A stretch of 64,000 nucleotides of DNA from Escherichia coli (GTDB taxonomy: Bacteria; Pseudomonadota; Gammaproteobacteria; Enterobacterales; Enterobacteriaceae): NCBI RefSeq assembly GCF_044324785.1, contig NZ_CP172128.1. One strand, given 5' to 3'. Positions 9,201-12,200 of this stretch are shown in pieces. A program made the position numbers. Each line of letters starts with the position of its first letter. Position 1 is the first letter of the stretch.

Positions 9201-12200
9201 GCGTGACTACATCAGTATCATGCCTAAACCAGACGGGTTAACGGCAGCAAAGAACCTTGCAGAGGCGTTCGAGCATTATAACGAATGGCATCCGCATAGT
9301 GCACTGGGTTATCGCTCGCCACGGGAATATCTACGGCAGCAAGCCAGTAATGGGTTAAGTGATAACAGGTGTCTGGAAATATAGGGGCAAATCCATTATT
9401 TTTTTGTATGCTCAGTTATTGATGGATAATAATATTAAATGAATCAGTAAGTTCCTTACTCTTTCCCTCTGCACAGGTGGTTTTTTATAAAATTCTTCGA
9501 AAGGTAATACCTGATATCCCGGAGGCATAGCAACGAAGGGGATACAGATTAAAGACATAACACGGATAAGTCACCAGGAGGAATTATGTCTTGGATGAAA
9601 CTGACGGAAGCAGAACGTAAGCGTATCAACGATGCTTATGCCGCACAGGCTGCACAGTTAAAGTTGTCCGGCAGGGATGAACTGCCACGGGAAGTTAAGA
9701 GAAAAGTGCGTGTAAAAGTTTTGAGAATGATTCGGGCAGAGCGCAAAGCGAGAACCGCAAAGGCTCAACGAACAAAAGCGTATCGTGCCGCAGAGAACAC
9801 GTTTACCTGGCAGCCGGCGCGACGCAGGTGAGCCGGCCAGCGGAAGAGCCTGTACATAGATTTGTGTAATTGCCTGATTTTGATATGTTCAATCCAGCAT
9901 CAAATGAAGGTTAATTTATGGACGAAAAACAGTTACAGGCTCTGGCTAACGAACTGGCCAAAAACCTCAAAACCCCTGAAGACCTCAGTCAGTTTGATCG
10001 GCTGCTGAAAAAGCTCAGCGTTGAAGCCGCTCTCAATGCAGAGATGACACACCATCTTGGGTATGAGAAAAATCAGTCCAGACCAGGAGCTAACTCCCGC
10101 AACGGTTATTACACAAAGACCGTTATCACAGGCGACGGTCCACTGGAACTGCGTACTCCGCGCGATCGTGACGGTACCTTCGAACCACAACTGGTAAAGA
10201 AAAATCAGACCCGTATTACCGGGATGGATAACCAGATCCTCTCGTTGTATGCCAAAGGGATGACCACCCGTGAGATAGCCGCTGCGTTCAAAGAACTGTA
10301 TGACGCAGATATTTCACCGGCACTGATATCAAAGGTTACCGATGCCGTGATGGAGCAGGTTGTATAATGGCAAAACCGACCACTGGATGCTGTTTACCCC
10401 ATTGTTTATCTTGACTGTATCGTCCTGAAAGTTCGGCAGGACAGTCGCATCATCAACAAATCGGTGTTCCTGGCACTGGGCATCAATATCGAAGGTCAGA
10501 AAGAACTGCTGGGTATGTGGCTGGCCGAAAATGAAGGGGCGAAGTTCTGGCTCAATGTGCTGACTGAACTGAAAAACCGCGGTCTGAACGATATCCTCAT
10601 CGCCTGTGTGGATGGCCTGAAAGGCTTCCCGGATGCCATCAACACAGTATATCCGAAGGCCCGCATCCAGTTATGCATCGTGCATATGGTGCGCAACAGC
10701 CTGCGCTTCGTGTCATGGAAGGACTACAAAGCCGTCACTCGCGACCTGAAAGCGATTTATCAGGCTCCCACGGAAGAGGCAGGTCAGCAGGCACTGGAAG
10801 CGTTCGCTGCGGCCTGGGACAGTCGCTATCCTCAGATAAGCCGAAGCTGGCAGGCTAACTGGCCGAATCTTGCCACGTTCTTCGCTTATCCAACGGACAT
10901 CCGCAAAGTGATCTATACGACGAATGCCATCGAGTCGCTAAACAGCGTGATCCGCCATGCGATCAAAAAGCGTAAAGTGTTCCCGACAGACGACTCGGTG
11001 AAAAAAGTGGTGTGGCTGGCAATCCAGTCTGCGTCCCAGAAATGGACGATGCCGTTGAAGGACTGGCGAATGGCAATGAGCCGCTTTATTATCGAGTTCG
11101 GTGACCGCCTGGACGGTCACTTCTGAGAAAGGCATTTACACAGAATCTTAAACAGGCTCAAGTGAAGCTAAGCACACAATCAATTCAGGTCTTTGACATC
11201 CTCCATCTTAACTTCCAAAGGGTACTCCCGCCGACATAAGGCGGGAGTACCCTTTGGAAGTTAAGATGGAAAACCGACATAAGAACCCTCTGTTATCCTG
11301 AAACTCTTATATTTATATAACTTGTGAAGGCGTTATGCACACAACCAATCTTCGCAAAGTCGGCGTCTCGTTGACATCCTCCACGCCCTGACGAATGTGG
11401 AGGAATGTCAATATTAATGTCCGGGCCACTCCTGTTGTTCAGTGACGTGATGTGATATTTCTTCTTTAGCTGTAGCCTCATTCTGGAGGTTTGAAGTAAA
11501 TATACGCTCCATTGTTTGTGCAACCGATGGTGGCATTTTTTCTTCCACACGTTCCTCTTCCGGACAACTCTGTGTGATATAGCATACGTGCCGTTCTTCC
11601 CGGGATGTGGTATTGATGATGTGAACTGCCTTGTTCCACAGGCTGTTTCCCCGGGCAGAGATATCTGTATCATATTGCGGAAGCAGATCCAGCGATGTTT
11701 GTGTTTCGTTAAGCTGCTTCTGGAAGGTATCGATGATACGGTAAGGCTCTGTACGGTTTTTACGACGTTTACGGGATGGTTTTGCTGTCAGTACACCAAT
11801 AATGCTGCTGACATGCTCCGGTGTGGGAAAACGGCGCTGCACTGTCCTGGGGACGAGACGGCGGAGACGCTCCAGGCGGGGGGCTTCAACGGAAATATAG
11901 CGGTTGATGACCACCGGATCACTGTCGCAACTTTTCTCGCTGTCCGGAATATACACAGAGGCTGACGGCACCACATCCCCCTGGAAAACGGTAAAGAACT
12001 CACCGGCATTCAGTCTGATCAAATCCTGCACGTCGATTTTGCTTTCCATCTGGATGGTGATCTGGTTACCGTCCACCCAGGACTCACCCATCACACCATC
12101 GTGGCGCTGCAGGCTGCCCATTCTGGCCCTAGCCTCTTCACCGGCGGCATTTTTCACCGTTCTTGCCGTTTTGTCGTCACTGACAATGCGTCCGGCGAAT

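What the first reader, a model, noticed from the sequence alone, without database searches (positions are those of the whole stretch)
9586..9831. Orphan small basic protein with a strong ribosome-binding site between IS2 and IS1414
A complete 81-aa Lys/Arg/Ala-rich ORF with a perfect AGGAGG site sits in a 450-bp island between two insertion sequences. It could be a nucleoid-associated or regulatory protein, or a stranded fragment.
Basis: seen in the sequence. Interest (0 to 1): 0.25.

Follow-up and report, generated by a model that had tools for sequence, protein, structure and literature searches.

The report
Small basic ColE1-plasmid gene, YjbD-like
The 81-codon reading frame is a real, complete small gene that normally sits on small ColE1/CloDF13-type plasmids, looks distantly related to the uncharacterised chromosomal protein YjbD, and is stranded here between insertion sequences on a large poultry E. 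coli plasmid; it is a modest curiosity, not a surprise.

Summary
An ATG-to-TGA ORF of 81 codons lies at 9586-9831 (+). AGGAGG sits at 9576-9581. IS2 (8065-9395) is on the left and IS1414 (9846-11159) on the right.

It is not a gene fragment. Full-length homologues of about 81 aa, with the same start and stop, occur in about 438 plasmid records. These include small E. coli ColRNAI plasmids (81-88% aa identity) and about 420 Klebsiella, Citrobacter and Enterobacter cloacin plasmids, CloDF13 among them (about 54%). Pairwise dN/dS is 0.12-0.31.

No Pfam or NCBIfam family reaches threshold. One family member scores 23.1 bits against DUF3811/YjbD, where the cutoff is 23.5. A profile-profile alignment to YjbD is collinear over 71 columns (E 1.7e-4; 0 of 200 shuffles reach its score). 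The predicted folds match: two helices plus a tail ending F-x-W...RRR. All members are strongly basic.

The 450-bp island is not isolated. The same ColE1-type DNA continues left of IS2 (6609-8064). In ColE1-like plasmids this segment lies between the mob genes and cer, and there the gene is often a pseudogene.

Function is unknown. My best guess is a dispensable nucleic-acid-binding accessory protein. Whether it is expressed here is unproven. Interest is low.

The parts
9586..9831 (+). 81-codon gene (stop included) for a 9.6-kDa, pI 11.6 protein predicted as two helices plus a tail. RefSeq lists it as WP_045148228.1, 'hypothetical protein'.
   Evidence: Full-length homologues. dN/dS 0.12-0.31. 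AF2 model with pLDDT 82, helices 8-24 and 35-71.
9576..9581 (+). Shine-Dalgarno AGGAGG, 4 nt upstream of the ATG. A purine-rich SD is kept at the same place in all homologues (GGGGG, GGAGA, GGAGG).
9396..9845 (.). Right-hand piece (450 bp) of a ColE1-type plasmid fragment: upstream leader, the gene, and 14 bp after the stop codon. It is cut by IS1414 on the right.
9396..9490 (+). Upstream block, about 83% identical to ColE1-like E. coli plasmids such as pSMS35_8. In those plasmids it ends in a clean stem-loop plus T-run (CCCCTCTTCAGTAGAGGGTTTTTTTT). The window copy of that hairpin is degenerate, and 48 bp that follow it in the ColE1-like plasmids are missing.
   Evidence: The scan found no terminator or promoter.
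6609..8064 (.). Left-hand piece of the same ColE1-type fragment, 79% identical to pLH10-b-1-D (L011 3519-4987). It is contiguous with the right-hand piece apart from about 10 bp at the IS2 insertion point. It has no long conserved ORF.
8065..9395 (+). IS2 (1331 bp) inserted into the ColE1-type fragment, 190 bp upstream of the gene's ATG. Its IRR end faces the gene.
   Evidence: RefSeq annotates it as 'IS3 family transposase, programmed frameshift'. The identification as IS2 rests on its end sequences and InsC/InsD proteins as I know them.
9846..11159 (+). IS1414 (IS256 family). Its transposase is broken by an internal stop at 10365-10367, and it carries an intact 38-aa astA/EAST1 ORF at 10633-10749. 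There is no target duplication, so it marks a recombinant junction.
   Evidence: PMC12585946 describes astA embedded in IS1414.

Best explanation
The ORF is an intact copy of a small, conserved but dispensable accessory gene of ColE1/CloDF13-type (ColRNAI) plasmids.

Shown or predicted:
- The protein is about 81 aa and strongly basic.
- AlphaFold predicts two antiparallel helices and a flexible C-terminal tail.
- The tail carries the near-invariant ending T-F-T-W-Q-P-x-R-R-R-COOH.
- The protein is most probably a divergent, plasmid-borne relative of the chromosomal enterobacterial protein YjbD (Pfam DUF3811).

How it reached this plasmid (shown): it is part of a ColE1-type fragment of at least 1.9 kb, the segment that in ColE1-like plasmids lies between the mob genes and cer. 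That fragment sits in the IS-accretion zone between pemIK/nikB and trbC of an IncI1-like poultry E. coli plasmid. IS2 later split it, and IS1414 cut it 14 bp after the stop codon.

How it works (inferred, about 0.35): the protein binds nucleic acid through its positive surface and Arg-rich tail, and acts in trans on some plasmid-maintenance or transfer step, not as an enzyme. Whether it is expressed in this location is unknown. Its native upstream region is largely retained, but no convincing promoter was found, so transcription may depend on read-through or on an outward or hybrid promoter at the IS2 end.
For: Real coding gene:
- There are 436 of 438 plasmid hits covering at least 80% of the protein, at three identity levels: 100%, 81-88% and about 54%.
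- Start, stop and length are identical in six sequenced homologues.
- dN/dS is 0.12-0.31, and synonymous sites are saturated between the two subfamilies.
- The SD is conserved.

Plasmid types: pcolRNA2, pRHBSTW-00814_4, p7-S1-IND-02-A, pC862_3 and CloDF13 all carry RNAI and/or Rop.

Origin of the island:
- It is collinear with pLH10-b-1-D on both sides of IS2.
- In that plasmid, the cer core GGTGCGTATAATTAAGGGATTATGGTAAAT lies about 290 bp downstream of the gene.
- The host backbone is IncI1-like, with trbA/B/C, nikB-type relaxase and pemIK.

Dispensability: the gene is frameshifted in pLH10-b-1-D, and in pSMS35_8 its 5' half is replaced by sequence 100% identical to window 2367-2597, which lies beside an ALIL pseudoknot typical of IS3-family elements.

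Link to YjbD:
- Family member P0011 scores 23.1 bits against PF11656 over positions 4-85 of 88, against a cutoff of 23.5. P0015 scores 15.6 and P0006 scores 12.7.
- hhalign of the family against a YjbD alignment gives E 1.7e-4 over 71 collinear columns.
- None of 200 column shuffles reaches that score (26.7 against a mean of 10.7, sd 2.3, max 23.8).
- The AF2 models have the same architecture: helices 8-24 and 35-71 plus tail, against 13-30 and 36-69 plus tail.
- Both share an F-(S/T)-W...R-(G/R)-R-R C-terminus.
- Positive charge is conserved, net +7 to +16 and pI 10.2-11.6, in all members and in YjbD.
Against: Against the YjbD link:
- The window protein itself hits no Pfam or NCBIfam model.
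- hhalign probability is only about 50%, and the YjbD alignment used has low diversity.

Against any firm functional claim:
- There is no experimental literature on either family.
- Nucleic-acid binding is inferred from charge alone.

Against expression here:
- No sigma-70-like promoter was detected in 9300-9950.
- All 13 large-plasmid copies are 100% identical, so they say nothing about selection in this location.
Confidence: 0.8

Rival explanations
1. The gene family is real, but this copy is an inert passenger. It was cut off from its plasmid context (cer, oriT, replication region) and from a working promoter, it is not expressed, and it does nothing for the IncI1-like plasmid.
For: - It is flanked by IS2 and IS1414, with no target duplications, inside a zone packed with IS100, IS2, IS1414 and IS3-family remnants.
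- No promoter-like site was found.
- The gene decays to a pseudogene in ColE1-like plasmids, so it is easily lost.
- All large-plasmid copies are identical, so there is no sign of selection here.
Against: The ORF and its SD are intact. Three different IS2 junctions exist in sister plasmids, at window 9395/9396, at about 9459, and at about 9484 with IS2 inverted. All three leave the gene and at least 100 bp of leader untouched. IS2 ends are known, from my own knowledge, to create outward or hybrid promoters, so expression is possible.
Confidence: 0.5
2. It is a mobilisation-linked accessory protein. It would act either as a relaxosome or oriT helper, or as a small protein carried into the recipient through the helper plasmid's type IV secretion system, with its Arg-rich C-terminus serving as the export signal.
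For: - In the P0011 subfamily the gene starts 17 nt after an MbeA-like relaxase, in a MobC/NikA-relaxase operon.
- In pRHBSTW-00814_4 and pcolRNA2, a traJ-II (oriT-associated) motif lies about 125 bp downstream of the gene (43.6 and 29.5 bits).
- PLSDB types 407 of the 438 carrier plasmids as mobilizable.
- The extreme C-terminus, R-R-R, is invariant or nearly so. From my own knowledge, positively charged C-termini are VirB/D4-type translocation signals.
Against: - pcolRNA2, pRHBSTW-00814_4 and the 5.7-kb Klebsiella plasmids carry the gene without any annotated relaxase.
- In CloDF13 it lies next to the cloacin promoter, far from mobB/mobC.
- The chromosomal relative YjbD has the same kind of tail with no conjugation context.
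- There is no hit to MobC, RHH or NikA models.
Confidence: 0.15
3. It is a nucleoid-associated or transcriptional regulatory protein in the classical sense (H-NS/Hha/HU-like, or a repressor of neighbouring plasmid genes such as the cloacin operon).
For: The protein is small and highly basic, and the charge is conserved. In CloDF13-type plasmids it is divergent from the SOS-controlled cloacin promoter, about 330 bp away.
Against: - There is no similarity to any NAP or DNA-binding domain family.
- The predicted fold is a plain helical hairpin with no HTH or RHH.
- The neighbours differ between plasmid types: cloacin, pyocin/PAAR, glycoside hydrolase, mob, or none. No fixed regulatory target is therefore evident.
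Confidence: 0.15
4. It is a chance ORF or an internal fragment of a larger gene, and the conserved DNA is really a cis-acting site.
For: ORFs of this size are common by chance in the window. The gene lies next to cer-like sites in several plasmids.
Against: - Frame, length, start and stop are kept at 54% nucleotide identity, with dN/dS well below 1.
- No longer homologue exists. The only longer entries are an alternative upstream start (P0003), a chimeric pseudogene (P0016) and a spurious low-complexity hit (P0017).
- No Rfam family is found in 9300-9950.
Confidence: 0.02

Closest known systems
YjbD / DUF3811 (Pfam PF11656), an uncharacterised 90-aa chromosomal protein of Enterobacterales (E. 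coli b4023)
   Same: Both are about 80-90 aa with net charge about +9 or more. Both are predicted as two helices plus a disordered tail. They align collinearly over about 71 positions. Both have a conserved E-R-E/K-A stretch in helix 2 and a C-terminal F-(S/T)-W...R-(G/R)-R-R end.
   Different: The window protein does not reach the Pfam threshold; only one family member comes within 0.4 bit. Identity is about 20%. The family is plasmid-borne, whereas true yjbD is chromosomal, next to lysC and rluF; its 'plasmid' hits are mislabelled chromosomes or chromids. YjbD's own function is unknown, so the link gives no mechanism.
The unnamed 81-aa ORF of CloDF13 (WP_021515249.1), between the cloacin promoter and genes K and L, and its copies on about 420 Klebsiella, Citrobacter and Enterobacter cloacin plasmids
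   Same: Same length, same termini, 54% aa identity, and the same RBS position. It is clearly the same family.
   Different: It is a different subfamily and less basic (+8 against +16). Its neighbourhood differs: it is divergent from cloacin, and in the 5.7-kb plasmids its stop codon is 2 nt from the XerD arm of the cer-like site. It too is annotated only as 'hypothetical protein'.
Rop/Rom, the 63-aa helical-hairpin RNA-binding protein of ColE1 plasmids
   Same: Both are small proteins predicted or known to be helical hairpins, encoded on the same class of plasmids. Both are dispensable backbone genes.
   Different: There is no sequence similarity and no Rop Pfam hit. A separate rop gene is annotated on the same plasmids. 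The present protein has helices of unequal length and a basic tail. The comparison of fold and role is from my own knowledge of Rop and was not tested here.

Membership tests
DUF3811 / YjbD (PF11656) | Score at or above the Pfam gathering threshold (23.5 bits) | tested here: not met
   The window protein gives no hit even at E<=1. The best family member, P0011, scores 23.1 bits (E 9.5e-5, profile positions 4-85 of 88). P0015 scores 15.6 and P0006 12.7. The CloDF13-type members give no hit.
DUF3811 / YjbD (PF11656) | Profile-profile homology to a YjbD alignment | tested here: inconclusive
   hhalign gives probability 49.7%, E 1.7e-4 and 71 collinear columns. None of 200 column shuffles reaches the score (26.7 against a maximum of 23.8), and the reversed control scores 9.8. 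This is suggestive but below the usual 90% acceptance level, and the YjbD alignment has low diversity.
DUF3811 / YjbD (PF11656) | Architecture: about 90 aa, two helices, and a basic disordered C-terminal tail ending in Arg residues after an F-x-W motif | tested here: met
   AF2 models give helices 8-24 and 35-71 plus tail for the ORF, and 13-30 and 36-69 plus tail for YjbD, both at pLDDT 82. For the C-termini; for charge.
DUF3811 / YjbD (PF11656) | Chromosomal location in Enterobacterales (the lysC-yjbD-rluF neighbourhood) | tested here: not met
   All relatives of the window protein are on plasmids or small circular-plasmid-like contigs. yjbD proper is chromosomal.
   Two whole-database protein searches were run, a word-indexed search of 5.8 billion proteins and an exhaustive HMMER scan of 1.84 billion representatives. 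They returned only homologues of 79-87 aa, plus truncated or chimeric pseudogene products.
Rop/Rom and MobC/RHH relaxosome accessory proteins (known small proteins of ColE1-type plasmids) | Match to the corresponding Pfam or NCBIfam models | tested here: not met
   No hits for any of the 12 family members. Rop and MobC are annotated as separate genes on the same plasmids.
Nucleoid-associated proteins (H-NS, Hha/YmoA, HU/IHF, Fis) | Sequence or fold match to a NAP family; demonstrated DNA binding | tested here: not met
   No sequence match in Pfam, NCBIfam or PDB. Fold searches return only generic helical hairpins. DNA binding itself cannot be tested with these tools.
Anti-phage defence or phage protein families | Match to PADLOC or PHROG models, or presence in phage genomes | tested here: not met
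   PADLOC gave 0 families. PHROGs gave only noise (E>=0.0036 for single members). tblastn against 50,697 phage records found no match.

The most novel reading that the evidence does not exclude
The plasmid-borne YjbD-like proteins could be a new class of small basic effector. Small non-conjugative ColE1/CloDF13-type plasmids would send it along with their DNA through a helper's type IV secretion system, with the invariant C-terminal F-x-W...RRR tail as the signal. Alternatively it would act at the adjacent cer/Xer or oriT sites to help the incoming plasmid establish. Chromosomal YjbD would be the host counterpart whose function the plasmid version mimics or antagonises.
Probability: 0.08. Interest if true: 0.55.

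Novelty: new variant of a known kind. Interest (0 to 1): 0.2.

Why it matters
The gene matters only modestly. A conserved protein-coding gene sits on hundreds of sequenced small bacteriocin and cryptic plasmids, including CloDF13, one of the first plasmids sequenced. It has no name, no family model and no known function. Linking it to chromosomal YjbD (DUF3811) gives both orphan families a sister group and a cheap experimental handle, because small plasmids are easy to delete from and to assay for copy number, stability and mobilisation. For the window itself the result is mainly housekeeping. The 'orphan' is a passenger from a ColE1-type plasmid fragment, caught and cut up by IS2 and IS1414 in an IncI1-like poultry E. 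coli plasmid.

Tried and rejected
- Family libraries. Pfam, NCBIfam, PHROGs and PADLOC scans of the window protein and of 12 family members returned nothing except the sub-threshold DUF3811 hits.
- Solved structures by sequence. The PDB search gave only E 0.31 noise for the family, and E>=0.048 RNF168 coiled-coil noise for YjbD.
- Single-sequence comparison. A YjbD sequence against the family profile gave a weak result (probability 29%), so I built a YjbD alignment.
- Searches with P0011. The word-indexed search returned only P0011 itself, and tblastn against plasmids found no match.
- Phages. There was no match.
- Rfam. No RNA family was found in 9300-9950 at E<=1, so this is not a known RNA element.
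- Promoter and terminator scan. Nothing was found in 9300-9950. The RNA fold of the leader is no more stable than shuffled sequence (z 0.66).
- LexA control. The CloDF13 LexA box (3166-3187) belongs to the cloacin promoter, about 260 bp from the ORF, and the window's upstream region has no counterpart. I therefore dropped SOS control as an explanation.
- Upstream repeats. In pcolRNA2 I considered the 124-bp-spaced repeats and a 15-nt hairpin upstream of the gene as operator sites. They are absent from the window and from CloDF13-type plasmids.
- Origin of nearby mob genes. I first took the mobA/relaxase/MobC and PemK genes near the locus in pLH50-c-A to be remnants of the same small plasmid. 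They are the IncI1 backbone (nikA/nikB, pemIK).
- Literature. Searches on CloDF13 ORFs, DUF3811 and yjbD found nothing on function.
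Full report
**1. The observation**

- An ATG at 9586 opens an 81-codon frame that ends with TGA at 9829-9831.
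- AGGAGG lies at 9576-9581, four bases before the ATG.
- The product has 24 Lys+Arg, 14 Ala, net charge +16 and pI 11.6.
- To the left is a 1331-bp IS2 at 8065-9395. It starts TAGACTGGCCCCC and ends GGGGCAAATCCA, with orfA/orfB on the + strand.
- To the right is IS1414. Its imperfect inverted repeats lie at 9846-9875 and 11130-11159, and its transposase has an internal stop.
- The DNA between them, 9396-9845, is 450 bp.

An ORF of this length is not remarkable by itself in a 64-kb window; one search lists many of similar size nearby. The question is whether it is conserved as a coding sequence.

**2. It is a real, complete gene**

The identical 541-bp stretch occurs in 9 E. coli plasmids, and in 13 at 80% coverage or more. 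These plasmids are 103-241 kb and nearly all come from chickens or food. The ORF is annotated there as WP_045148228.1, 'hypothetical protein'.

A translated search of 72,556 plasmids found 438 records, 436 of which cover at least 80% of the protein.
- 12 records are identical copies on large plasmids.
- Three small E. coli or E. marmotae ColRNAI plasmids match at 81-88% aa identity: pRHBSTW-00814_4, pcolRNA2 and p7-S1-IND-02-A.
- About 420 small Klebsiella, Citrobacter and Enterobacter plasmids match at about 54-56%. These include the classic cloacin plasmid CloDF13 (NC_002119, 3446-3691, WP_021515249.1).

In all six homologues I extracted, the frame is exactly 81 codons with the same start and the same C-terminus...TFTWQPxRRR*.

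Nei-Gojobori dN/dS is 0.12-0.31 in every comparison where dS can be estimated. Synonymous sites are saturated between the two subfamilies. The DNA alignment shows that similarity starts about 80-100 nt upstream of the ATG, includes the SD, and stops just after the stop codon.

Two whole-database protein searches found only relatives of about 79-87 aa, plus truncated or chimeric pseudogene products. None was a longer protein containing this sequence internally. The 'fragment of a larger gene' reading is therefore refuted, and so is 'chance ORF'.

**3. Where the DNA comes from**

The host replicon is IncI1-like, with trbA/trbB(dsbC)/trbC, a nikB-type relaxase and pemIK. The locus lies in a zone crowded with IS100, IS2, IS1414 and IS3-family remnants.

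The island is collinear with ColE1-like colicin plasmids. Window 9396-9831 matches pLH10-b-1-D (L011) 4998-5480. The match resumes on the other side of IS2, where window 6609-8065 matches L011 3519-4987 at 79%. IS2 therefore inserted into a ColE1-type fragment of at least 1.9 kb, and the '450-bp island' is only its right-hand piece.

In pLH10-b-1-D this segment lies between the mbe (mobilisation) genes and cer. The cer core GGTGCGTATAATTAAGGGATTATGGTAAAT lies about 290 bp downstream of the gene. In the window, IS1414 cuts the fragment 14 bp after the stop codon, and there is no target duplication.

In the ColE1-like E. coli plasmids the gene is decayed.
- In pLH10-b-1-D it is frameshifted.
- In pSMS35_8 its 5' half is replaced by sequence 100% identical to window 2367-2597, which lies beside an ALIL pseudoknot typical of IS3-family elements.

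The gene is therefore dispensable for those plasmids.

Sister large plasmids show three different IS2 junctions within 90 bp upstream of the gene: at window 9395/9396, at about 9459, and at about 9484 with IS2 inverted. All three leave the gene and at least 100 bp of leader intact. This is at most weak evidence that the gene is retained.

**4. What the protein looks like**

No Pfam, NCBIfam, PHROG or PADLOC family matches the window protein.

AlphaFold2 on a 12-sequence alignment gives a confident model (pLDDT 82). It has helix 8-24, a loop with an invariant Pro, helix 35-71, and a lower-confidence tail. Fold searches against the PDB return only generic helical hairpins.

Scanning each family member separately gave one consistent lead, DUF3811/YjbD.
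- P0011 (47% identical to the window protein) scores 23.1 bits over essentially the full model, against a cutoff of 23.5.
- P0015 scores 15.6 bits and P0006 12.7 bits.

I fetched E. coli yjbD (b4023), built a 20-sequence YjbD alignment and compared profiles.
- hhalign aligns 71 columns collinearly with E 1.7e-4 and probability 50%.
- None of 200 column-shuffled controls reaches the score (26.7 against mean 10.7, sd 2.3, max 23.8). The reversed control scores 9.8.
- The YjbD AlphaFold model has the same architecture: helices 13-30 and 36-69, then a tail. This agrees with the +5 offset of the alignment.
- Both families end F-(S/T)-W...R-(G/R)-R-R, and both are strongly basic: net +7 to +16, pI 10.2-11.6.

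I conclude that the plasmid proteins are probably a divergent sister group of DUF3811. They fail the formal Pfam threshold, so I do not file them as members.

True yjbD is chromosomal; its 'plasmid' hits are mislabelled chromosomes or chromids. I found no functional literature on either family.

**5. Context clues to function**

The neighbours of the gene vary by plasmid type.
- In CloDF13-type plasmids it is divergent from the LexA-controlled cloacin promoter. In CloDF13 itself it is followed by genes K and L.
- In the 5.7-kb Klebsiella plasmids its stop codon is 2 nt from the XerD arm of the cer-like site GGTGCGGGCAACGGATGTTATGGTAAAT.
- In pRHBSTW-00814_4 and pcolRNA2 a traJ-II (oriT-associated) motif lies about 125 bp downstream.
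- In a metagenomic subfamily (P0011) the gene starts 17 nt after an MbeA-like relaxase.

The cargo also differs between plasmids: cloacin, pyocin/PAAR, glycoside hydrolase, or none. The gene therefore behaves as a backbone or accessory module and not as a partner of any one cargo.

It tends to lie near the cis sites of small plasmids (cer, oriT). On 4-10-kb replicons that proximity is not statistically compelling.

**6. Mechanism**

These points are shown or predicted:
- The gene is coding and under purifying selection.
- The protein is basic.
- It is predicted as two helices plus a tail.
- It comes from ColE1-type plasmids.
- It is dispensable in some lineages.

These points are inferred:
- The protein is a non-enzymatic, nucleic-acid-binding accessory factor, acting in trans on a plasmid maintenance or transfer step (about 0.35).
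- A mobilisation-linked or translocated role is a specific sub-hypothesis (about 0.15).
- A classical NAP or repressor role is about 0.15.

In this window no promoter-like site was found, and the leader has no special fold. Expression may depend on read-through from IS2 or on a hybrid promoter at its end. That IS2 can do this is from my own knowledge and was not tested. It is about even odds that this copy is just an inert passenger.

**7. Novelty and verdict**

The gene is already deposited many times as 'hypothetical protein'. It has been present, unnamed in the annotated records, on CloDF13 since that plasmid was sequenced.

What is new here is modest:
- The ORF is shown to be a genuine conserved family.
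- The family is tied to small ColE1/CloDF13-type plasmids.
- It is probably related to YjbD/DUF3811.
- The window copy is part of an IS-fragmented ColE1-type segment.

This would not surprise a plasmid biologist, though it does define a cheap experimental target for two orphan families. Interest is 0.2.

Noticed in passing
window 10633-10749 (+), inside IS1414 (9846-11159): An intact 38-aa ORF, MPSTQYIRRPASSYASCIWCATACASCHGRTTKPSLAT. It has the length and position of the astA (EAST1 heat-stable enterotoxin) gene, which is known to be embedded in another frame of the IS1414 transposase (PMC12585946). The transposase frame itself is broken by a stop at 10365-10367. The IS is therefore probably immobile while the toxin ORF is intact.
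   Followed up: partly
window 6609-8064 (and L011 3519-4987, L012 34-940): About 1.5 kb, conserved at 79-83% between this plasmid and ColE1-like colicin plasmids. It has no ORF above 128 aa and no conserved ORF, and RefSeq annotates nothing there. It could be a long non-coding or decayed stretch between the mob genes and the small gene.
   Followed up: partly
window 6366-6523 (-): A STAXI RNA motif (70.4 bits), just left of the ColE1-type fragment and right of the IS100 end (about 6097).
   Followed up: no
window 19473-19629 and 20193-20350 (+): Two sok antitoxin RNA matches (123 and 120 bits) 720 bp apart, which suggests a tandem pair of hok/sok-type loci. There is also an AgrB antisense RNA match at 16194-16283 (-) and an ALIL frameshift pseudoknot at 2702-2788.
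   Followed up: no
window 11202-11232 / 11240-11270: A perfect 31-nt inverted repeat with a 7-nt loop. It lies between the right end of IS1414 and the 3' end of trbC (11414-13687, -), so it is probably a terminator or a recombination hot spot.
   Followed up: no
L004 (CloDF13) 4383-4393 and 4773-4800, minus strand: Gene K is followed by an isolated XerD-arm sequence (TTATGGTAAAT). Gene L is followed by the full crl/parB core GGTACCGATAAGGGATGTTATGGTAAAT. K and L thus look like modules bounded by Xer sites, reminiscent of dif-module shuffling.
   Followed up: partly
L005 (pC862_3) 4380-4412: In the 5.7-kb Klebsiella cloacin plasmids, the stop codon of the 81-aa gene is only 2 nt from the XerD arm of the cer-like site, in convergent orientation. 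In ColE1-like plasmids the gene lies on the other (accessory-sequence) side of cer, about 75 bp away.
   Followed up: partly
L001 (pLH50-c-A) about 5990-6000; L010 (pEGY2) about 5990-6010; window 9395/9396: IS2 abuts the small gene at three different positions in sister plasmids, and in pEGY2 it is inverted. This points to repeated local IS2 rearrangements or adjacent deletions that each spared the gene.
   Followed up: partly
L006 582-664 (+) and L002 2873-2937 (+): A traJ-II RNA motif (RF01760) lies about 125 bp downstream of the gene: 43.6 bits in L006, above threshold, and 29.5 bits in L002, below threshold. On these relaxase-less plasmids it may mark an oriT-like site.
   Followed up: partly
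L012 (pSMS35_8) 1113-1343 and window 2367-2597: A 231-bp stretch, 100% identical in inverted orientation. In pSMS35_8 it replaces the 5' half of the small gene. In the window it lies beside an ALIL pseudoknot typical of IS3-family elements, so the pSMS35_8 pseudogene was probably made by an IS event.
   Followed up: partly
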